Source: a virus
Length of the DNA stretch: 64,000 bases
IMG/VR virus record: IMGVR_UViG_3300006076_000003
Location: 22,602 to 86,601 of that record
Direction: 5' to 3' (one strand)
A program made the translations under genes and the position numbers. Shown here piece after piece: positions 1 to 8,959 of the stretch (position 1 is its first letter; each line of letters starts with the position of its first letter). The notes beneath the pieces are model-generated. The model was not told where the DNA came from. It did not search any database and saw only the letters and a list, made by a program, of their open reading frames with translations.

Positions 1-511
1 CTATTGATCTTTCATTATCTAAATCTGAAATAACAAGTCCATTAGACTGTGTTTCACCATGAAATGTTTCTTTAAGTGGAAATAGATAGATATTATTAAT
101 AATATTTGCACCTCTATCGATTAATTCTACAATTGAACTTGTTATAGATACTTTAGGGTTTGTTCTACCTCCACTATAAAGTTTTCTATTTGTTATTTTA
201 AGTTTTAAATACTGTATAACTTCCATATTAGCAGCATAATATGTCATAGTCACATTATTTTTAAAATAATTCCAAAACATCAACGTTTCTAAGTTACCTA
301 CATGATCATCGTGTATATGACTTATAAACACATGTTTTATTTGTTTAATATGAAAATCCGTAGTTGTCTTTTCTAACTGAATTAATCTTTGCATTATATT
401 AAAACCACAATCAAATAGTAAATATTCATTTTTACTAACTTCAATTAAAAAACTACTATTTGTTGATAGTGGATCTAATCCACCACCATTACCTAACTGT
501 ATAAACTTCAT
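1..511 (-). CDS. Metallo-beta-lactamase-fold hydrolase, RNase Z/ElaC-like (runs off window)
   Basis: Manual translation MKFIQLGNGGGLDPLSTNSSFLI...LLFDCG...VFISHIHDDHVGNL; HxHxDH motif; not in ORF track because truncated. Confidence 0.85.
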   Translation of the reverse strand, partial: MKFIQLGNGGGLDPLSTNSSFLIEVSKNEYLLFDCGFNIMQRLIQLEKTTTDFHIKQIKHVFISHIHDDHVGNLETLMFWNYFKNNVTMTYYAANMEVIQYLKLKITNRKLYSGGRTNPKVSITSSIVELIDRGANIINNIYLFPLKETFHGETQSNGLVISDLDNERSI

Positions 512-2257: not shown

Positions 2258-2326
2258 TTAGCTTGTATATGCTATTAAAATAATAGCAAGTATTACAGCA
2301 AAATCTAATAACATTGCTATGGCCAT
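2258..2326 (-). CDS. 22-aa hydrophobic peptide
   Basis: MAIAMLLDFAVILAIILIAYTS; AAGGA RBS; fills gap in operon. Confidence 0.45.
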   Translation of the reverse strand: MAIAMLLDFAVILAIILIAYTS

Positions 2327-2329
2327 TTT

Positions 2330-2470
2330 TTATCCTTTCACCATAGCTTGATATATTGATACTTCAAATTGAAATGGGCTCCCTAAAGGTTTCCATCCCA
2401 TAGCAATATGCTCTCTAACAAATTCCTCTAAAAGGTCAATTGTGTGACCTTGCAAAATTCTATAGCTCAT
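2330..2470 (-). CDS. DUF1737-like small protein (46 aa)
   Basis: MSYRILQ...LEEFVREHIAMGWKPLGSP...YQAMVK matches the GW.P.G...YQAM pattern of DUF1737. Confidence 0.7.
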   Translation of the reverse strand: MSYRILQGHTIDLLEEFVREHIAMGWKPLGSPFQFEVSIYQAMVKG

Positions 2471-2495
2471 AATATTATAATCCTACAATTAATAT

Positions 2496-2521
2496 AGCAG
2501 TTTAAAGTCTTGCTTAGGACT
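2496..2521 (-). ncRNA. Pseudoknot motif A, copy 1
   Basis: Minus strand AGUC-CUAAGCAA-GACU-UUAAAC-UGCU. Confidence 0.7.
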
Positions 2522-2526
2522 GAGTA

Positions 2527-2880
2527 TTAGTTGCAGATGAATCCAGGTACACTTACAATGTTGCCTTTAGCATCTCTTGTTGCATTGTTAGTATCTGGTG
2601 CCACTAAGTCTTGACGCTCAGGGAATGCAGCAAGGATCATAGCACTAACAATTAAAATTTTGTTAGGTTGTGGTTCAGGTAAGTTGTGGCCAGTGACCAC
2701 TTGACGGGAGACTGTGAACATATCTATGTCCCCCACGATTTGATTTTCTTTTTCAAGGCGAGCCTCATTACCTGATGGCTCATAAGTGGTTGTACCCCAG
2801 CCGTTTTTTAATGTAATTGCATGTGGAGTCCAATTCTCCACTACTAATTCTGTATAATTCATTAAAGTATCCTCAATCAT
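2527..2880 (-). CDS. Conserved phage protein (N.TPH.I ... RDAKG.I family)
   Basis: NWTPHAITL...LPEPQPNKILIVS...RQDLVAPDT...RDAKGNI pattern seen in many phage hypotheticals. Confidence 0.75.
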   Translation of the reverse strand: MIEDTLMNYTELVVENWTPHAITLKNGWGTTTYEPSGNEARLEKENQIVGDIDMFTVSRQVVTGHNLPEPQPNKILIVSAMILAAFPERQDLVAPDTNNATRDAKGNIVSVPGFICN

Positions 2881-2919
2881 TTTATTCTCCTAAAATTAGA
2901 TTTTTTGACCTATAGGGTA

Positions 2920-2952
2920 GGCCTCCTTAGGTCTGTGCCTGAGGGGCTTTTT
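2920..2952. terminator. GC-rich hairpin, candidate terminator or regulatory stem
   Basis: gcctccttagg-tctgtg-cctgaggggc followed by T-run on plus strand. Confidence 0.45.
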
Positions 2953-3122
2953 ATATAAGTCTTAATTAAATCTTAATTTATTTATTAAAACTTAATTAAA
3001 ACTTAATAGAAATAATCAAAATAGTTGTTATGACTGTATAAGTTTTAAACTTTAAAGTTGTATAAAAAATATACAGTCTATTTTTGAGGTTTGTGGGTTT
3101 GTTGGTTTTGTTTAGAGGGCTG

Positions 3123-3440
3123 TTAGAGGTCTGGAAGGAGCTCCAAATGCTCCTCCCTACCGCTATTTTCCACGTATAGCTCCTCATAAATTTTGTCGTA
3201 AATCCCCTCTTTCCCAAGAGACGATAACTCTCGTAAATGTGTGAGGTACCACTCTTGTCCACCTATATAATCCAAGTAACTACCGCCTTCAGCTTTAGCT
3301 TTTGCTTTAGACTGCTTAATTATCAATTTTTCTAAAGCTTTATCACTCATCTTTGGAGTGATTTTTAATTCCTTTATTTTGCCTATTACTGCCTTAGTGC
3401 GTTTAAACACTAAGCCAGCAATCTCTTGCTTGTAATGCAT
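3123..3440 (-). CDS. Hypothetical early protein (start revised to MHYKQE)
   Basis: AAGGAG RBS before 3440. Confidence 0.65.
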   Translation of the reverse strand: MHYKQEIAGLVFKRTKAVIGKIKELKITPKMSDKALEKLIIKQSKAKAKAEGGSYLDYIGGQEWYLTHLRELSSLGKEGIYDKIYEELYVENSGREEHLELLPDL

Positions 3441-3745
3441 TTCTGCTCCTTTAATTAATAAATTCAATTAACCGAGGCCCCGTACGAGGTAATAGATAGA
3501 GTGTCGACACTATAAGTAGATATTGTTTATTTGTTAAAAAATAACAAATAAAAACAAAAGTAATATATGCTCTTTAAAAAACAGGCTACTCAAAGGTAGT
3601 TCCTAAGGAGAGCATATAAAACTCAATGCTGCTTTCCGTAGAAAACAGCAGTGAATTTTAAATTAAACTTAGACCAGCCCAAATGTCTATTTTTTCAAGT
3701 TTGGGCAGTCGTCCCAAAATTAAAAAATTAGGACACATACTCTTT

Positions 3746-3984
3746 ATGACCTTTTCGTGGTCATGTGGTGTAACCTAAGGGTTACACACCACTGCCCACA
3801 ACGCAAAATTAAGGTTATGGTCATTTCGTGGTCAAATTTCGTGGTCAAAATTTAACTCAAAAAACCCATGAAATAAGGCTTTGTCACTTTCATGGTCATT
3901 TCGTGGTCAAATTTCGTGGTCAAATTTCGTGGTCAAAATGGTTGACCATGAAACCTCTTGTGGTCAAATAAAATGACCACGAAA
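3746..3984. repeat. Iteron-like array of TTTCRTGGTCA (about 9 direct and 2 inverted copies)
   Basis: Direct copies at about 3753, 3815, 3824, 3837, 3888, 3899, 3912, 3925, 3957; inverted TGACCAYGAAA at 3943 and 3974; AT-rich tract follows. Confidence 0.9.
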
Positions 3985-4019
3985 ATGTTAAATATTTAAT
4001 ATTAGTTTAAAATTAAATG

Positions 4020-4050
4020 TGTATAATACACACATATAAATACTAAGGAG
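4020..4050 (+). promoter_or_regulatory. Sigma70-type -10 box and RBS for the RHH-RepA operon
   Basis: TATAAT at 4022-4027, AAGGAG at 4045-4050. Confidence 0.6.
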
Positions 4051-4056
4051 CAAGTG

Positions 4057-4227
4057 ATGAGAAAAAACATATGGTTCTCAAAATATCAACAAGAGATAAT
4101 GAGAGGGATAAAACAGTTTACAGATAACGTAAAAGAGACTGATTCAGAAATAATCAGAAAATCAATGGAATACTACCTACAGTATTTAAAAGATAACAAA
4201 ATGGAGAAAGTGAATGATGAAAAATAA
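4057..4227 (+). CDS. CopG/ribbon-helix-helix DNA-binding protein (56 aa)
   Basis: Manual translation MRKNIWFSKYQQEIMRGIKQFTDNVKETDSEIIRKSMEYYL; beta strand then SEIIR..YL RHH signature; overlaps repA start. Confidence 0.7.
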   Translation: MRKNIWFSKYQQEIMRGIKQFTDNVKETDSEIIRKSMEYYLQYLKDNKMEKVNDEK

Positions 4228-5197
4228 CACAGAGGTAATAGAATTTGAAAAGTACTTTAACAAGGTACCTGATGAATTAATAACACCAGATTGGCTATAT
4301 AAAAACCTTATTGAGAAAAATTCATTAAACGTTATGTTTGGTGCAACAGGATCTATGAAAAGTTTTGTTATTTTAGATATGCTATTGCATATAACAAATA
4401 ATAAAGATTGGCAAAACTTTAAATTAAAAGAGCAAGATGTTGTTGCTCTATATGTTGCTGGGGAAGGACAGACTGGTCTAAACCTTAGAATAAAAGCAGC
4501 ATGTAATAAACATGAATTAAATCATGACAATTTGTTAATAAGCAAAACACCTGTTGATTTAATGAATGAGGGACATATTAACAAATTAATAGCAGCAATT
4601 AAGAGTATAGATAAACATGTTTTTATCATATTTGATACACTAAACAGAAACTTTAGTGGTGATGAAAATAGCAGCAAAGATATGGCTGTTGTATGGCAGA
4701 ATGTAACAAGATTAACAAAAGTTAATGCTACTGTTATGATAATTCACCATACAGGACATGGTGTTTCAAATAGAGCAAGAGGTAGTTCATCTATAAGAGC
4801 AGCAATGGATGGTGAGTTTGGTGTAGAACTCAATAAGGAAACAAAAGTTATAACTGTTTCAAATACCAAAGCTAAAAACACTGAAGAAGCAGATGCTATT
4901 ACTTTAACATATGAAAAAGTTATATTAGGAAAAGATGAAGACGATGATGACATTACCTCATTAGCATTGTTACCTTATATTGATGAGGACAGCAATGATA
5001 CAGAAGAAGTATTAATAAATACTGCTGAACTCATCAAAGATAAATTACCTATGAGTCATAAAGACATTAACAAATTGATTGCTGATGTTTTTAATAAGGC
5101 AGAGGAGACAGTTAGAAAAAGCATAAAACCAAAGGTCTATGCTTATCTAAAAGATAAATATAACATCCAGTCCGCTAAATCTGGCTGGGTGTTATGA
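4214..5197 (+). CDS. RepA-like SF4 helicase (AAA_25 family)
   Basis: Walker A GATGSMKS, YVAGEG, Walker B IIFDTL, DENS, IIHHTG, ARGSSSI..AMD. Confidence 0.9.
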   Translation: MMKNNTEVIEFEKYFNKVPDELITPDWLYKNLIEKNSLNVMFGATGSMKSFVILDMLLHITNNKDWQNFKLKEQDVVALYVAGEGQTGLNLRIKAACNKHELNHDNLLISKTPVDLMNEGHINKLIAAIKSIDKHVFIIFDTLNRNFSGDENSSKDMAVVWQNVTRLTKVNATVMIIHHTGHGVSNRARGSSSIRAAMDGEFGVELNKETKVITVSNTKAKNTEEADAITLTYEKVILGKDEDDDDITSLALLPYIDEDSNDTEEVLINTAELIKDKLPMSHKDINKLIADVFNKAEETVRKSIKPKVYAYLKDKYNIQSAKSGWVL

Positions 5198-5212
5198 TAC
5201 CATGTTATCTCT

Positions 5213-5237
5213 GAGAAAGAGGTTAAACCTCTTCCTC
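5213..5237. terminator. Hairpin between convergent repA and RNAP genes
   Basis: aagaggt-taa-acctctt. Confidence 0.5.
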
Positions 5238-7324
5238 TATGCTTGCATAAAGTTATCTCCTATAATTAATTTAGTCTCTTGTTTATCAGGTCGTAGACTT
5301 GCGACCTCTTCTGCTGTTAATTTGTCACGGCTCATAGATTTTAATGCCATTAACATTGCTTCCTGCTCCCAAGCATCCAGTAAATCTTGTTTTCCTACTC
5401 GAAGCAATCCTTCCTGAAGCATTCCACATGCCCCATCATTATCGTGTATAAATATTGCTGACCCACCAAGTTCAGCAACATAATCTATTTTAGCTCTAAC
5501 AGCTACAGCATCATCTGCATGTGTTGCATTTGCTAAAGCTCCACTCATTTTAACTTTAGATTCAACATCTTGTTTATCGCCTCTTCCTTTGATTACTGAG
5601 ACTGCTGGCACATATTTACCATTGTTTAAGATAAATAGCAATGGCATATGTCTAACAATACTCATAGACTTTAGGTTGTCATAACCCAACTTTTCATTGA
5701 ACGATCTTCCTTCCTCATCACTTGAGATGTAGAATACCTTAGATTGGTATCCTTCTAAATAAGCAATTGATCTGGCTGGAAAACCATCCCTTGTCATGAT
5801 GTTTAACTCTGAGTACTCATTGTTATAAAATGAGTTCCCTATCTTGTTATACAGGTGGAATAATTCACCTGTATCTCCATATACTTCTTTAACAATCTTG
5901 AGATATACCTCCTCTGTTAGATTTATTTCCTCACTATGTGCTTCTAAGAAGTACTGTTCAGCCTTCTTAACAGCAGATTTAGGTGATACCCCAGCAGTAA
6001 TTGATTGTGATACTGCTTTCTTGATATCATCCCTTGTTGCTGATAGATTTGTTATTTTATTAAATGCTTTAGTAAGCTCCTTGTGTGGATCCATAACTGA
6101 TTTGTAGTCAAGTAGATTACATATTCTTAAAGCTTTACGCTCTTTACTAAGTCCAGCAGCAAACCTTATTGCTCCTGAGTTGGTGTAATCTGTGAACAGG
6201 TATGTTGCATTTGGTGTGCCACTTAAGTAATCATAATATGCTTGTACTACTCGCTTATGATAAAGCTCCTCTAAATAGCCATTAGCCGATTTTAAAAATT
6301 TGCTAATGTTTTTATCAACATCCTTTTCAAACTCTGCTATTGCATTGTTTGGGTTCAACCTTTTAAGAGTTGACATAATTACAAATACAATATATTTGTA
6401 ATCTAACTCATTTAATACTCTAGGCTTAAAACTCTCCCACATATATTTACCTATCTTTGTTTGTGGGTTTAATAAAGGATTTGGTGATGTATAATAAACC
6501 CTTCCCCTGTAATCATATGCTGTCTCTATAAACAAGGGAAAGTTTCCACTTTCTTGTTTATTTTTTAATTCTACCAATGCTTTAATATACCTTTTGTAAT
6601 TTTGTTTTAATTTGTCTAACCTATCTTTGATTAGCAATCTCCTTTCAAGATTGCTGTATTTTCTTGTTTTAGATAAAAATTTGCCTTCTTTAACAGCTAT
6701 ATATTCTTTGCTGGTCAGCAAATATTTATACAGCTTTTTAATCTCTACATCATTTACAAGACGATGTTGCATCTTGTTAGCATTTGCTAAAGTCTTTTTA
6801 GCAGCACTATTAAGTTTACGTGCTGGCATACCTGCTTTACCTGCTACTTTAGTTTTAGGCTTTTGTGGTGAAAATGTTACACCACTAGTAGCATCTTTAA
6901 GAGCTACTTCAATACTAGGGTCCCCAATAAACTTTTCAATCTTTTGGTACTGCTTGTTACGACTTCTATACACTTCAACTCTTTTATTTGGACCTACTTT
7001 CATATAAGCATTTAGCACTGCTGCTGCAATGCTTAACTTTGCATGTTCCCTCCAGTGAGGGTTGAAATCTCCTAAGCCTCTTGAGTTTAGCCTATAAGAC
7101 AGTGCAGCAACTGCGTTATGCAGTTCAGTTTCTCTTAGATTTTCTAAGAAAGATAGGATATCTTTCTTATAGCCTCCTTTGAAAAAGATATCATAGGCAG
7201 CTACCATTGCTGCCCATTTTTCGTCTTTACCTTCTAAAGTCTTTAGAACTTTTAAATCTTCAAGAGATTTTTTGCTTTCTTTTAATTCAATATACACTTT
7301 TCTATAGATTGTTTCAGTTTTCAT
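5237..7324 (-). CDS. Single-subunit T7/N4-type DNA-directed RNA polymerase (RNAP II equivalent, unsplit)
   Basis: YDYRGRVYY, motif A DYTNSG, motif B RDDIKK, ANATHADDA, motif C IHD. Confidence 0.88.
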   Translation of the reverse strand: MKTETIYRKVYIELKESKKSLEDLKVLKTLEGKDEKWAAMVAAYDIFFKGGYKKDILSFLENLRETELHNAVAALSYRLNSRGLGDFNPHWREHAKLSIAAAVLNAYMKVGPNKRVEVYRSRNKQYQKIEKFIGDPSIEVALKDATSGVTFSPQKPKTKVAGKAGMPARKLNSAAKKTLANANKMQHRLVNDVEIKKLYKYLLTSKEYIAVKEGKFLSKTRKYSNLERRLLIKDRLDKLKQNYKRYIKALVELKNKQESGNFPLFIETAYDYRGRVYYTSPNPLLNPQTKIGKYMWESFKPRVLNELDYKYIVFVIMSTLKRLNPNNAIAEFEKDVDKNISKFLKSANGYLEELYHKRVVQAYYDYLSGTPNATYLFTDYTNSGAIRFAAGLSKERKALRICNLLDYKSVMDPHKELTKAFNKITNLSATRDDIKKAVSQSITAGVSPKSAVKKAEQYFLEAHSEEINLTEEVYLKIVKEVYGDTGELFHLYNKIGNSFYNNEYSELNIMTRDGFPARSIAYLEGYQSKVFYISSDEEGRSFNEKLGYDNLKSMSIVRHMPLLFILNNGKYVPAVSVIKGRGDKQDVESKVKMSGALANATHADDAVAVRAKIDYVAELGGSAIFIHDNDGACGMLQEGLLRVGKQDLLDAWEQEAMLMALKSMSRDKLTAEEVASLRPDKQETKLIIGDNFMQA

Positions 7325-7358
7325 TTTGAACTCCTATAATTAATTTTTTTTTGTTCAA

Positions 7359-7472
7359 CGTACCTTTGTTTAAGCAGTTGGTCTGCTCTTGTTAACTAAC
7401 AACTAACCCACCATTAAGTACTCCATTGAGTACTTAAGGATGAGTGAACAGTTTATAGTCTTGTTCAGGACT
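7359..7472 (-). ncRNA. Structured intergenic cassette: pseudoknot A copy 2, long stem, hairpin/pseudoknot B
   Basis: 7446-7472 motif A; 7406-7445 17-bp stem; 7359-7387 motif B; whole cassette repeated at 8029-8148 with compensatory changes. Confidence 0.75.
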
Positions 7473-7488
7473 AAGGCAGATCTTAGAG

Positions 7489-7998
7489 CTATTCAATCCT
7501 AAAATCTACCATGGGAACTTCTAATCCCTTAGCAGCTAATGCTGCTAAGGTTAATATTCCTTCTTTGGCAATCCCCTTCCTTTCATATTCCCTTATTTCA
7601 AGTGTTGTCTCTCTATCAATTATTTGTTGTACAAATTCTCTATATAATAGAGAGACTATTAAGTATTTGGATATATCCTCCTGTATCCTACTATACTTTG
7701 ATTCTACTTTAGTTTGTAGGACTATTTTATCTCTTTTAATCTCTAATAGGGAAATTGATATGTCTGCATACATGTCTTTATTATTAATTCCTGCTTTTGT
7801 GATTCTTTCCTCAGGAGCCTCTGACTCCCAACCAAATACTCTACGTTCTCCTTTTACCCATCCTTTACTTATAAGCCAATACTTAAATGTATGGTTATTC
7901 AAAACTTCAGACATTTCTGCGTACTCTTTGTATGCTTCTCTATTTGCAAGGCCACCTAATTTTTTGTGTCCGTAAAATTCAATTGTTAAAGTTTTCAT
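7489..7998 (-). CDS. Hypothetical early protein
   Basis: 169 aa, AAGGAG RBS. Confidence 0.75.
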   Translation of the reverse strand: MKTLTIEFYGHKKLGGLANREAYKEYAEMSEVLNNHTFKYWLISKGWVKGERRVFGWESEAPEERITKAGINNKDMYADISISLLEIKRDKIVLQTKVESKYSRIQEDISKYLIVSLLYREFVQQIIDRETTLEIREYERKGIAKEGILTLAALAAKGLEVPMVDFRIE

Positions 7999-8028
7999 AA
8001 TGTTCTCCTTAAATTAATTTATTATGAG

Positions 8029-8148
8029 CGTACCTTTTTAAAAGAGTTGGTCTCTTTTCTATTGAACAATTAAACTAACTACCCACCATTAAACATTCCT
8101 AAGAATGTTTAAAGATAGGTAAGCAGTTTTACAACATGCTTAGGTTGT
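8029..8148 (-). ncRNA. Structured intergenic cassette: pseudoknot A copy 3, long stem, hairpin/pseudoknot B
   Basis: 8120-8148 motif A; 8080-8121 stem; 8029-8058 motif B. Confidence 0.75.
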
Positions 8149-8153
8149 TGTTT

Positions 8154-8495
8154 TTATTTTTGTTTTTCAATCTCCTTTTTTAATTTTGCTAGTTTAAGCT
8201 CTCTTCTGAGAGCTTCCTCTTCCTCACGAGCTGTCTTCTCTTCTTCGCTCTCCTCTAACAGAGTAGAGAACCACTCTGCTGAGTTTTTAATATGTGTTGG
8301 TGTATTACCAACAAACTCAATTGTTCTATAAGTAGCCTCTGCAGTCAATGCTGCAGTTTTAGAAATTGACGCAGTAGAGTAAACTACCGCATCGTTTAAG
8401 TCAGCTAAAGGAGTTAATCCTTTATCTGCACAATTAGACTCTACTGAGTCAACTAAATCTTCAATAAACCATTTTGCTTTTGTGAATACTTTCAT
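8154..8495 (-). CDS. First early gene, hypothetical with C-terminal coiled coil (start revised to MKVFTK)
   Basis: AAGGAG RBS before 8495; the upstream extension in the ORF track crosses non-coding elements. Confidence 0.7.
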   Translation of the reverse strand: MKVFTKAKWFIEDLVDSVESNCADKGLTPLADLNDAVVYSTASISKTAALTAEATYRTIEFVGNTPTHIKNSAEWFSTLLEESEEEKTAREEEEALRRELKLAKLKKEIEKQK

Positions 8496-8516
8496 TGTAT
8501 TCTCCTTTAAATAAAT

Positions 8517-8544
8517 TAGCAGTTTTACTACTTGCTTAGGTAAA
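8517..8544 (-). ncRNA. Pseudoknot motif A, copy 4
   Basis: Minus strand UUAC-CUAAGCAA-GUAG-UAAAAC-UGCU. Confidence 0.65.
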
Positions 8545-8545
8545 A

Positions 8546-8959
8546 TTAGGTACTTCAACCACCATAGGGGGGGGGTATCCCCACTTGATTGGCGTTGGAT
8601 GCACCTAACTACACACCTCACTAAAAAGAAAGAAAAAACACCTATCACCAAACCTAAAAACTGCACACTGCAAACAATTTAACATCACATGCTAAAAAAT
8701 TTTTATTTTTATTACTACTACTATTATTATTAAGTTATAAAAAGAAATATATAAGTATTTAAAGAAAAGCCCCAGCGGCTCAGCTAAAAGGACGGGTGGG
8801 GTGTTAGGCAATTTTGTTATTGTTATGCTATAATCTACCAAAACTTAAAAATAGGCTTAAAAGTTATGTTATATTATATAGACTTTTTTTGTTTGCACTG
8901 CAATTCAACAAACAAATGCATACTAAAAGACAACATTATAAAATGTCCTTTATGCAACA
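8546..8959. other. Divergent non-coding region; probable genome terminus / terminal-repeat region
   Basis: Strand switch between first early gene and terS/terL, where N4 has its ends; G9 tract at 8567-8575; TGCTATAAT at about 8826-8834. Confidence 0.55.

What the first reader, a model, noticed from the sequence alone, without database searches (positions are those of the whole stretch)
2496..8544. Four dispersed ~27-nt H-type pseudoknots with covariation in both stems, confined to the early region
Seen on the minus (mRNA) strand: AGUC-CUAAGCAA-GACU-UUAAAC-UGCU (2496-2521); AGUC-CUGAACAA-GACU-AUAAAC-UGUUCA (7445-7472); ACAAC-CUAAGCAU-GUUGU-AAAAC-UGCUUA (8120-8148); UUAC-CUAAGCAA-GUAG-UAAAAC-UGCU (8517-8544). 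Stem 1 changes sequence but keeps pairing. Stem 2 covaries (AAGCA/UGCUU vs GAACA/UGUUC). CU and AAAC are invariant. Three copies lie 5-16 nt after a stop codon and two lie just before an RBS. Inference: a functional RNA element. Candidates are an exoribonuclease block (e.g. against RNase J), a small ligand- or protein-binding aptamer, or a decoy for type III toxins, whose ToxI antitoxins are pseudoknots of similar size.
Basis: partly seen in the sequence, partly recalled or inferred. Interest (0 to 1): 0.8.

Follow-up and report, generated by a model that had tools for sequence, protein, structure and literature searches.

The report
Coremin-like RNA pseudoknot between phage genes
The four repeats are real copies of a fixed 27-base RNA pseudoknot that very many unrelated phages place a few bases after stop codons; it is in no RNA catalogue searched, closely resembles the plant-virus 'coremin' RNA that stops RNA-degrading enzymes and ribosomes, and its job in phages is untested.

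Summary
Observation confirmed. Exactly four copies lie on the minus strand (2495-2521, 7446-7472, 8121-8147, 8517-8543), and there are no others in the 86.6-kb virus record. They belong to a large family with fixed geometry: NNWC-CU-RAGCA-H-GWNN-NWAAAC-UGCUY. I found it in more than 100 viral contigs, in prophage-like stretches of many bacterial phyla, and in cultured phages of Staphylococcus, Clostridium, Geobacillus, cyanobacteria, Roseobacter and Moraxella. Both stems covary: 88.7% of cells pair against 68.2% when shuffled, 0 of 500 shuffles as high. Loops CU and AAAC are nearly invariant. Copies are intergenic, co-oriented with genes, and peak 5-7 nt after a stop codon. No Rfam family matches. 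The closest known element is the coremin / xrRNA-WCC motif of eukaryotic RNA viruses. It has the same C-G closing pair, and G-W-N-N-N-W-A-A-A-C-U is in register. However, the loop consensus differs and the required second hairpin is not conserved. Best reading (0.45): a compact roadblock for 5'-to-3' moving machinery (ribosomes, RNase J, scanning RNase E) at cistron borders. RNase J alone cannot be the target, because some hosts lack it. The toxin-decoy idea has no support. "Early region only" holds for this genome, not for the family. Earlier agents of this scan reported the same family repeatedly.

The parts
8517..8543 (-). Pseudoknot copy E4: UUAC-CU-AAGCA-A-GUAG-UAAAAC-UGCUA. First element of the leftward operon, with no upstream gene. 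It ends 13 nt before the AAGGAG of the gene that starts at 8495.
8121..8147 (-). Pseudoknot copy E3: CAAC-CU-AAGCA-U-GUUG-UAAAAC-UGCUU. It lies 6 nt after the TAA at 8156-8154.
7446..7472 (-). Pseudoknot copy E2: AGUC-CU-GAACA-A-GACU-AUAAAC-UGUUC. Stem 2 carries two compensatory changes. It lies 16 nt after the TAG at 7491-7489 and upstream of the 695-aa RNA-polymerase-like gene.
2495..2521 (-). Pseudoknot copy E1: AGUC-CU-AAGCA-A-GACU-UUAAAC-UGCUA. It lies 5 nt after the TAA at 2529-2527.
8089..8112 (-). 10-bp hairpin 8 nt after E3. This is a local companion seen only in the E2/E3 duplicated unit; whether it plays the part of coremin's second hairpin is not known.
   Evidence: read from the sequence
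7414..7437 (-). 10-bp hairpin 8 nt after E2, homologous to 8089-8112. The arms differ in sequence but still pair.
   Evidence: read from the sequence
8042..8056 (-). 5-bp hairpin AAGAG-ACCAA-CUCUU in the E3 unit (local companion).
7373..7387 (-). 5-bp hairpin AGCAG-ACCAA-CUGCU in the E2 unit (local companion). Its stem differs from the E3 copy but still pairs.

Best explanation
The four elements are members of a pan-phage, uncatalogued cis-acting RNA: a fixed 27-nt H-type pseudoknot. It has a 4-bp stem 1 closed by an invariant C-G pair, loop 1 CU, a 5-bp stem 2, one junction base, and loop 3 NWAAAC. It is built like the coremin / Watson-Crick-coremin exoribonuclease-resistant RNAs of eukaryotic RNA viruses.

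Inferred mechanism. The knot folds in the untranslated gap right after a stop codon. It sits as close as a terminating ribosome allows without unwinding it. There it acts as a compact, direction-dependent roadblock to machinery that moves 5' to 3' along the message. Such machinery includes 5'-to-3' exonuclease (RNase J where present), 5'-end-dependent scanning by RNase E, and post-termination or read-through ribosomes. The cistron behind the knot thereby becomes a separately stable and separately translated unit.

What is shown: the fold, its conservation, its placement and its likeness to coremin. What is inferred: the roadblock function and its targets.
For: (1) Fold.
- Selection by loop letters only gave 283 hits in 1.92 Mb against 18 on reversed sequence.
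- Of the 85 hits that were not scan seeds, 59 have 5 of 5 stem-2 pairs and 60 have all 3 free stem-1 pairs.
- On 150 of those 283 rows (all 85 non-seeds plus a random 65 of 198 seeds; 140 distinct), 88.7% of cells pair against 68.2% shuffled (0 of 500 as high) and 27.5-39.0% when slid. 7 of 9 pairs change on both sides.

(2) Fixed geometry and near-invariant loops.
- Loop 3 is 6 nt in 186 of 191.
- CU in 171 of 183 and AAAC in 168 of 176 when the other loop is used for selection.

(3) RNA-level placement.
- 112 of 191 copies have same-strand ORFs on both sides, against 6 with both opposite.
- 179 of 191 lie outside ORFs of 100 aa or more.

(4) Anchoring to stop codons.
- A stop triplet lies exactly 5 nt upstream in 63 of 250, 6 nt in 39 and 7 nt in 34. 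Offsets 1-3 and 8-19 give 10-26 each.
- The same spacing is seen in annotated phages CRP-13, S-EIVl, GR1 and Melnitz.
- The next ORF start is a median 124 nt away.

(5) Likeness to coremin.
- The papers give GUCCGAAGACGUUAAACUAC, a C-G loop-closing pair, a U-A second pair and essential A16-A20 of the spacer.
- They also describe a Watson-Crick variant that pairs loop with spacer, and report stalling of Xrn1 and of scanning ribosomes and stimulation of -1 frameshifting (passages and one Results section read).
- The phage G13-W-N-N-N-W-A-A-A-C-U23 is in register with coremin G9..U19.

(6) A folded xrRNA blocks bacterial RNase J1 as a general mechanical block (PMC5760640, passages).

(7) Recurrent downstream genes are abundant-protein genes.
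- Head scaffolding families match at least 4 of 141 downstream ORFs and 3 of 10 chosen prophage neighbours.
- SSB follows the copy in S-EIVl.
Against: (a) Coremin needs a second hairpin right after the spacer for Xrn1 resistance. In the phage family a hairpin of 4 bp or more starting 0-4 nt after the knot occurs in 115 of 250, against 40% in shuffles; for 5 bp or more it is 27% against 19%. So this hairpin is not a family feature.

(b) The loop is CURAGCAH, not YGAD / YGNNAD.

(c) The helices are short and A-U rich. Pair 3-14 is A-U or U-A in 172 of 183. That looks more like an aptamer than a structure selected for brute strength.

(d) Frameshifter pseudoknots of similar size do not stall Xrn1 (PMC10321173), so shape alone does not predict resistance.

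(e) RNase J was not found in 3 of 4 genomes that hold a copy (two are MAGs and may be incomplete).

(f) The element is anchored to the upstream stop, not to the downstream start. That fits an upstream-acting role equally well.

(g) No RNA-end, probing or expression data of any kind were available.
Confidence: 0.45

Rival explanations
1. Aptamer. The knot is a specific binding site for a universally conserved partner. Candidates are a small ligand (a riboswitch-like sensor in the style of preQ1-I), RNA polymerase (a put-like processive antiterminator acting in cis), or the ribosome.
For: - The junction and loop letters are near-invariant (C4-G13, C5, U6, A11-U23, AAAC) while the stems are weak and A-U rich. 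This is the pattern of small aptamers.
- It occurs in phages of many phyla, so the partner would have to be universal.
- It must stay untranslated. From recall, the same holds for lambda nut and HK022 put sites.
- Some copies sit just before hairpins or T-rich runs: 48 of 191 have at least 6 T in the next 10 nt.
Against: - Neighbouring genes are of all kinds with no metabolic theme: ribonucleotide reductase, DNA polymerase, thymidylate synthase, scaffold, SSB, endolysin, HNH.
- No conserved expression platform follows, and no 6-mer was strongly enriched downstream.
- The junction base 12 is variable (U 93, A 72, C 15, G 3).
- No Rfam riboswitch matches.
- Antitermination is pure inference.
Confidence: 0.2
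2. 3'-end element. The knot protects the upstream cistron from 3'-to-5' exonucleases, or acts as a weak terminator or attenuator, much as terminator hairpins and REP elements do.
For: - It is anchored 5-7 nt after stop codons, with a variable distance to the next gene.
- A T-rich tail follows 48 of 191 copies.
- In Geobacillus phage GR1 it follows the last lysis gene, and in B166 it is followed by UUUUAUUAUG.
Against: - In CRP-13, S-EIVl and Melnitz the whole gap from stop to next start is about 46-54 nt with no U tract, so the knot lies inside an operon.
- E4 in this window has no upstream gene.
- Tandem copies occur without ORFs between them in L097 and L081.
- A 4+5-bp A-U-rich knot is a poor terminator hairpin.
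Confidence: 0.12
3. Recoding signal. The knot makes some ribosomes read through or shift frame at the stop codon, producing C-terminally extended proteins.
For: The 5-7-nt spacing from the stop equals the spacing of frameshift stimulators from the A-site codon (recalled). The coremin motif itself stimulates -1 frameshifting (PMC10321173).
Against: - In this window the extensions are short and unrelated: read-through gives 19, 1 and 14 codons, -1 gives 12, 28 and 4, and +1 gives 3, 17 and 7.
- No base preference is seen in the codon before the stop.
- E4 and the tandem copies have no upstream ORF.
Confidence: 0.06
4. Decoy for type III toxin-antitoxin endoribonucleases (ToxN / AbiQ class).
For: Only the general likeness in size and pseudoknot fold, plus an A-rich loop that could resemble a ToxN cleavage site (recalled).
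Against: - Copies are dispersed single units, not tandem arrays.
- The same invariant letters recur in phages of Firmicutes, cyanobacteria, Proteobacteria and candidate phyla, whereas antitoxin RNAs are family-specific (recalled).
- I did not search for ToxN-like genes, so their presence is not tested.
Confidence: 0.03
5. DNA-level signal, such as a hairpin promoter for the phage's own single-subunit RNA polymerase or a replication signal.
For: This phage encodes a divergent single-subunit RNA polymerase. N4 virion polymerase uses hairpin promoters (recalled). The element has a fixed length, like T7-type promoters.
Against: - The family occurs in more than 100 viral contigs, while a scan of the same viral collection found no relative of this polymerase.
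- It also occurs in temperate Staphylococcus phages, which from recall rely on host RNA polymerase; I did not check B166 for a polymerase gene.
- Covariation of two interleaved helices with 2-nt and 6-nt loops fits an RNA pseudoknot, not a protein site on duplex DNA.
Confidence: 0.03

Closest known systems
Coremin motif (xrRNA-C) of beny-, cucumo- and other eukaryotic RNA viruses (PMC6546385: abstract and part 1 of Results read; PMC10520033: outline and passages)
   Same: - A short 5' hairpin of 3-4 bp with a C-G loop-closing pair and an A-U/U-A second pair.
- The loop starts with a pyrimidine and ends with A plus a variable base.
- The stretch after the closing G reads G-W-N-N-N-W-A-A-A-C-U, in the same register as coremin G9-A-C-G-U-U-A-A-A-C-U19.
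- It lies in untranslated or intergenic RNA, sometimes in several copies per genome.
   Different: - The loop is 8 nt, CURAGCAH, with U where coremin needs G.
- Letters after ..AAACU are a Watson-Crick stem 2, not the fixed AC.
- The second hairpin that coremin needs for Xrn1 resistance is not conserved.
- The hosts are bacteria, which have no Xrn1.
- Resistance to any nuclease is untested.
Watson-Crick coremin (xrRNA-WCC) found by a frameshifting screen and in a picorna-like virus (PMC10321173: passages)
   Same: An antiparallel Watson-Crick stem 2 forms between the hairpin-1 loop and the spacer, giving an H-type pseudoknot on the coremin scaffold. The first loop base is needed beyond mere bridging.
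   Different: Stem 2 there is 3 bp, with C18 of AAAC paired. In the phage family stem 2 is 5 bp and starts after the C, and loop 1 has 2 nt. The natural example there is still followed by a 4-bp second hairpin.
Luteovirus-type -1 frameshifter pseudoknots (BWYV, PLRV), as described in PMC10321173
   Same: A compact H-type knot of comparable dimensions, with an A-rich loop crossing stem 1 and a C as the first base of loop 1. The 5-7-nt spacing from the A-site codon is also alike.
   Different: There is no slippery heptamer, no overlapping reading frame and no conserved extension. The stems are A-U rich.
preQ1-I riboswitch aptamer (Rfam RF00522)
   Same: A very small H-type pseudoknot with an A-rich tail in the stem-1 groove, a weak stem 2 and conserved loops (architecture recalled).
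   Different: The loop lengths and letters differ. There is no Rfam match at E up to 10 and no link to queuosine genes.
Rfam RF03003 GP20-b motif (named by earlier finding e1-5908510)
   Same: A candidate cis-RNA upstream of phage scaffold (GP20) genes, which is one recurrent context of the knot.
   Different: No match to it, or to any family overlapping a knot, at E up to 1 in 10 loci. Three of these have a scaffold gene shown downstream (L146, L161, L170), and B166 has an unnamed gene before its capsid gene. I did not see its consensus.

Membership tests
Coremin motif / xrRNA-C | 5' hairpin of 3-4 bp with a C-G loop-closing pair (G-C abolishes the function, U-A is tolerated) | tested here: met
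   C4-G13 in 173 of 183 hits selected by geometry plus AAAC. Pair 3-14 is A-U or U-A in 172 of 183. The requirement is from PMC6546385.
Coremin motif / xrRNA-C | Hairpin-1 loop consensus YGAD (4 nt) or YGNNAD (6 nt) | tested here: not met
   The loop is 8 nt, C-U-R-A-G-C-A-H. The first base Y and the last two A-H agree, but the second base is U, not G.
Coremin motif / xrRNA-C | Conserved 10-nt spacer GUUAAACUAC with essential A16 A17 C18 U19 A20 | tested here: inconclusive
   W-A-A-A-C-U is present in register (AAAC in 168 of 176; U23 in 185 of 186). The following A-C is replaced by stem-2 letters (G24 in 177 of 186).
Coremin motif / xrRNA-C | Second hairpin of at least 4 bp directly after the spacer, needed for Xrn1 resistance | tested here: not met
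   115 of 250 against 40% in shuffles; for 5 bp or more, 27% against 19%. In this window E2 and E3 do have a 10-bp hairpin 8 nt downstream; E1 and E4 do not.
Coremin motif / xrRNA-C | Stalls a 5'-to-3' exoribonuclease in vitro | not testable with these tools
   No assay was possible, and no RNA run was listed for this DNA.
xrRNA-WCC | Antiparallel Watson-Crick stem 2 between the hairpin-1 loop and the spacer | tested here: met
   5-bp stem 2. 59 of 85 non-seed hits pair 5 of 5. 4 of 5 pairs show changes on both sides.
-1 PRF / read-through stimulator pseudoknots | Slippery site or leaky stop, with a conserved extension reading frame | tested here: not met
   Extensions in the window run from 1 to 28 codons. 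No base bias is seen before the stop.
preQ1-I riboswitch (RF00522) and any other Rfam family | Match to the covariance model | tested here: not met
   0 matches at gathering score in 64 kb. 8 chance-level matches at E up to 10 over 2300-8800. 7 matches at E up to 1 in 10 loci, none over a knot.
Type III antitoxin RNA (ToxI class) | Tandem array of repeats next to a toxN-like gene | tested here: not met
   There are four dispersed single copies 396-4,951 nt apart. The presence of a toxN-like gene was not tested.

The most novel reading that the evidence does not exclude
The phage knot and the coremin motif of plant, fungal and invertebrate RNA viruses are one fold, shared or convergent. This would make it the first exoribonuclease- and ribosome-resistant RNA class of the prokaryotic world. 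It would be a 27-nt, protein-free, one-way barrier that phages of most bacterial phyla use to cut polycistronic messages into separately stable, separately translated units, working on whatever 5'-to-3' machinery the host has.
Probability: 0.3. Interest if true: 0.85.

Novelty: new variant of a known kind. Interest (0 to 1): 0.7.

Why it matters
If the reading holds, one of the smallest natural RNA folds would be a widespread post-transcriptional control device of phages, and the xrRNA principle would extend from eukaryotic RNA viruses to DNA phages. That would make cistron-level control of message stability and translation in phage operons directly testable, using a 27-nt element in tractable systems such as Staphylococcus, Geobacillus and Roseobacter phages. 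It would also give synthetic biology a tiny insulator or stabiliser part. The family deserves a curated covariance model whatever its function, because it occurs in cultured phages without any annotation beneath it.

Within this scan the family has been reported before. This window therefore adds an instance rather than a first sighting: a hydrothermal-vent phage that carries its own divergent single-subunit RNA polymerase.

Tried and rejected
- Rfam: nothing at gathering score or at permissive thresholds. The weak mir-4662 and freshwater-2 rows over E3 and E4 are chance-level.
- Relatives of the window by DNA: no match in the phage collection. Relatives of two multi-copy contigs: only a short 66% match to a mycobacteriophage hypothetical gene, or nothing.
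- Relatives of the 695-aa polymerase in viral contigs: none.
- A conserved second motif downstream of the knot: no 6-mer stood out. GGTGGGTWAGTT is not enriched in the window.
- Sigma-70 promoter scan: at shuffle level, 41 against 41.4.
- Promoter for the phage polymerase, MotA-box or boxA likeness, tRNA anticodon-arm mimicry and pistol-ribozyme likeness were each considered from recall. I dropped them because the covariation, the loop lengths or the lack of an Rfam match do not fit.
- Link to one neighbouring gene family: none.
- Host link to RNase J: not upheld. Taxon scans were too sparse to use: Enterobacterales 5 of 301 genomes against 3 control hits, Bacilli 11 of 301 against 3.
- Expression data: no RNA holder listed.
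- Literature: the sequence words gave only unrelated papers. 'xrRNA' with 'bacteriophage', and 'RNase J / pseudoknot / phage / exoribonuclease-resistant', gave no listed title or abstract about a phage element of this kind. The word 'phage' occurs 0 times in PMC10321173 and PMC10520033. Only these five searches back the statement that I found it nowhere in print. Subscription journals and supplementary files were not seen and may hold more variants.
- No covariance model was built. My own descriptor scans and the count of structure pairs were used instead.

Full report
THE OBSERVATION.
On the minus strand the window holds four 27-nt elements at 8517-8543 (E4), 8121-8147 (E3), 7446-7472 (E2) and 2495-2521 (E1). 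The pattern CCTRARCA-N7-AAACTG matches these four exactly and nothing else closely. With two mismatches allowed there are 6 matches against 2.25 expected, and 8 of 100 shuffles reach 6. The window alone is therefore only suggestive.

The window is bases 22602-86601 of an 86,601-nt virus record estimated 97% complete. That record holds the same four copies and no more. The backwards control gives 0, and a looser scan adds one hit at control level.

Stem 1 is AGUC/GACU twice, CAAC/GUUG, and UUAC/GUAG. Stem 2 is AAGCA/UGCUU in E3 and GAACA/UGUUC in E2, and has four pairs plus an A-A mismatch in E1 and E4. E1, E3 and E2 lie 5, 6 and 16 nt after a stop codon. E4 precedes the first gene of the leftward operon by 13 nt before its AAGGAG.

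A LARGE FAMILY.
Of the 120 matches in them, 116 have at least three consecutive stem-1 pairs counted from the loop (35 with five, 48 with four, 33 with three), with many different stem sequences.

There 63 of 122 matches have at least three pairs and 59 have two or fewer, as expected when about half are chance matches in so large a collection. The paired ones lie in Clostridium, Streptococcus, Lactobacillaceae, Helicobacter, Moraxella, Capnocytophaga, Bacteroidales, candidate-phyla and a few archaeal MAG contigs. Where I looked, they sit next to phage scaffold or GIY-YIG genes.

Four 35-36-nt queries against GenBank phages found the element in:
- Clostridium phage phiCT19406B
- Roseobacter phages CRP-6 and CRP-13
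- Lentibacter ICBM2
- Microcystis Ma-LMM01 and its relatives
- Planktothrix PaV-LD
- Nostoc NMeng1
- Synechococcus S-EIVl
- Acaryochloris A-HIS1
- Cylindrospermopsis phages
- many Staphylococcus aureus siphoviruses
- Geobacillus GR1, Anoxybacillus A403 and D6E
- Moraxella Mcat phages
- Methylophilales Melnitz
- Lactobacillus prophage Lj965

These come; one search gave only partial matches. No enterobacterial, Pseudomonas or mycobacterial phage is among the names shown, but such short BLAST queries see only copies with a similar stem 1.

THE FOLD.
To avoid circularity I selected hits by loop letters only (C4 C5 U6, G13, A19-C22, U23) in all 243 sources held, 1.92 Mb. This gave 283 hits against 18 on reversed sequence. 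Of the 85 hits that do not match the scan pattern, so that stem 2 was free, 59 pair 5 of 5 and 7 pair 4 of 5. Among them:

| Stem 2 | Hits |
|---|---|
| GAGCA/UGCUC | 25 |
| GAGUA/UGCUC | 7 |
| GAACA/UGUUC | 3 |
| GAAUA/UAUUC | 2 |
| AGGCA/UGCCU | 2 |
| GGGUA/UACCC | 2 |
| GAUCA/UGAUC, GGGCA/UGCCC, AGACA/UGUCU, GGAUA/UAUCU, GGUCA/UGACC | 1 each |

Of the same 85, 60 have all three free stem-1 pairs.

I then took 150 of the 283 rows: all 85 non-seeds plus a random 65 of the 198 seeds, including the expected background rows. On these the pseudoknot ((((..[[[[[.))))......]]]]] has 88.7% of cells paired against 68.2% in shuffles (0 of 500 as high) and 27.5-39.0% when the partner is slid by 1-3 columns. 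7 of 9 pairs change on both sides, and the covariation score is 0.537 against 0.189. Pair 4-13 is C-G by selection in that set. In a set selected by geometry plus AAAC it is C-G in 173 of 183.

The geometry is fixed, with loop 3 of 6 nt in 186 of 191. A fifth stem-1 pair occurs in only 67 of 191, which is chance level, so stem 1 has four pairs, and the outermost pair fails in 38 of 140 rows. Loop 1 is CU in 171 of 183 (CC in 5). Loop 3 ends AAAC in 168 of 176. Pair 3-14 is A-U or U-A in 172 of 183. The junction base 12 is U, A or C.

The family consensus is N N W C | C U | R A G C A | H | G W N N | N W A A A C | U G C U Y.

WHERE IT SITS.
Of 191 non-redundant copies with enough flank, 112 have ORFs of 100 aa or more on the same strand on both sides, and 6 have both on the opposite strand. 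179 lie outside such ORFs.

The distance from the end of the upstream same-strand ORF (60 aa or more) to stem 1 is 5 nt in 22, 6 in 14, 7 in 6, 8 in 4 and 9 in 8 of 121 (median 16). The next ORF start is a median 124 nt away. Counted without ORF calls, a stop triplet stands exactly 5 nt before the knot in 63 of 250 members (TAA 47, TAG 11, TGA 5), 6 nt in 39 and 7 nt in 34. Offsets 1-3 and 8-19 give 10-26 each.

Annotated phages show the same spacing:
- CRP-13: reductase TAA, 5 nt, knot, 14 nt, glutaredoxin ATG.
- Melnitz: TAG, 5 nt, knot.
- S-EIVl and GR1: 6 nt.
- B166: 9 nt.

Copies can stand in tandem with no ORF between them (L097, L081), and one stands 4 nt before a tRNA-like sequence in L061, read by eye. 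Neighbouring genes are of every kind. Upstream are ribonucleotide reductase, DNA polymerase, thymidylate synthase and minor head protein. Downstream are head scaffolding protein (at least 4 of 141), PhoH, SSB, HNH and endolysin. The element is therefore a general intercistronic RNA signal. It has to stay untranslated, and it is pushed as close to the preceding stop as a terminating ribosome allows. The figure of about 11-12 nt from the P site to the ribosomal helicase is recalled.

COMPARISON WITH KNOWN RNAS.
Rfam 15 has no match. There are 0 at gathering score in the window and eight chance-level rows at E up to 10 over 2300-8800. In ten loci with copies, seven matches at E up to 1 were found, none over a knot. 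Three of those loci have a scaffold gene shown downstream (L146, L161, L170), plus B166.

Earlier notes of this scan pointed to the coremin motif, so I read the papers. PMC6546385 (abstract and first part of Results) defines coremin as follows:
- a 3-4-bp hairpin with a YGAD loop;
- a C-G loop-closing pair, where G-C abolishes function and U-A is tolerated;
- a U-A second pair;
- a 10-nt spacer whose A16-A20 are essential;

PMC10520033 (outline and passages) gives the 20-nt word GUCCGAAGACGUUAAACUAC and the YGNNAD hexaloop rule, and reports function of longer loops and stalling of scanning ribosomes. PMC10321173 (passages) shows three things: coremin stimulates -1 frameshifting, a Watson-Crick variant pairs loop with spacer, and ordinary frameshifter knots do not stall Xrn1.

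Laid side by side, coremin G9-A-C-G-U-U-A-A-A-C-U19 and the phage G13-W-N-N-N-W-A-A-A-C-U23 are in exact register. The C-G closing pair and the W-W second pair agree. The loops both begin with a pyrimidine and end with A plus a variable base.

Three differences stand out. The second loop base is U rather than G. Stem 2 is a canonical 5-bp helix. A following hairpin is not a family feature: 46% against 40% in shuffles, and 27% against 19% for 5 bp or more. In this window E2 and E3 do carry a 10-bp hairpin 8 nt downstream.

I therefore class the element as working like, and probably folded like, a Watson-Crick coremin. I do not class it as a proven member.

FUNCTION.
The best-supported reading is a compact directional roadblock at cistron borders. 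A folded xrRNA stops bacterial RNase J1 as a general mechanical block (PMC5760640, passages). Coremin stops both an exonuclease and ribosomes.

Against a pure RNase J story, TIGR00649 over its cut-off was found in the Helicobacter genome but not in the Moraxella MAG, Capnocytophaga gingivalis or the Bacteroidales MAG that hold copies. It was also absent from the Pantoea control. MAGs may be incomplete.

If the roadblock idea is right, the target must be whatever moves 5' to 3' in a given host: ribosomes everywhere, RNase J in some, and 5'-end scanning RNase E in others (the last is recalled). The weak, A-U-rich helices and the invariant junction letters keep an aptamer reading alive (0.2). The anchoring to the upstream stop keeps a 3'-end protection reading alive (0.12). 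Recoding is unlikely, because extensions in the window are 1-28 codons. The toxin decoy and a DNA-level promoter have little or nothing for them. No expression data could be had.

THIS WINDOW.
All four copies lie in the leftward gene block from about 8,900 down to 1. That block holds a 695-aa divergent single-subunit RNA polymerase and small genes of unknown function. The iteron array and an AAA_25 helicase/primase-like gene on the + strand lie within the same span. 'Early region' is therefore plausible here.

E2 and E3 are embedded in a duplicated unit of about 150 nt with two further hairpins whose stems differ but still pair. That unit is local to this phage.

NOVELTY.
The family is absent from Rfam 15 and from the papers my five searches reached. 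Earlier agents of this same scan have already noted it many times: 273 notes hold the words 'coremin pseudoknot', in at least 219 genomes. Those notes are not independent evidence, but my counts agree with them.

Noticed in passing
window 3744-3984: At least nine copies of an iteron-like direct repeat TTTCGTGGTCA(A), some in inverted orientation nearby. They lie just upstream of the AAA_25 helicase/primase-like gene at 4214-5197 (+). Probably the replication origin.
   Followed up: partly
window 5237-7324 (-): A 695-aa protein with no Pfam hit. It matches PHROG RNA-polymerase families (phrog_2051, E 1.4e-7; phrog_414 over the DYRGRVYY stretch) and, weakly, phage N4 RNAP2 (6dt7_B, E 0.028). Only four relatives at 40-54% identity turned up among 5.8 billion proteins. 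Looks like a very divergent, short single-subunit RNA polymerase.
   Followed up: partly
window 7325-7500 and 7995-8165 (-): The intergenic regions holding E2 and E3 are a duplicated unit of about 150 nt. Its order is: knot, 8 nt, 10-bp hairpin, AUGGUGGGU, a 5-bp hairpin with an ACCAA loop (AAGAG/CUCUU against AGCAG/CUGCU), AAAGGUACG, then the RBS. AUGGUGGUU also stands about 20 nt before E4.
   Followed up: partly
window about 8563-8571 (-): A run of nine C in the leader upstream of E4.
   Followed up: no
L246 157-205 (Methylophilales phage Melnitz-1): A glutamine riboswitch aptamer match (52.8 bits; gathering score 35) directly after the phage's annotated tmRNA gene.
   Followed up: no
L061, minus strand near 3669-3695: One knot copy ends 4 nt before what reads by eye as a tRNA gene. 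I did not check it with ARAGORN.
   Followed up: no
window 2-511 (-): A metallo-beta-lactamase-fold protein with a sub-threshold match to the anti-Pycsar Apyc1 family (23.9 bits; cut-off 50).
   Followed up: no
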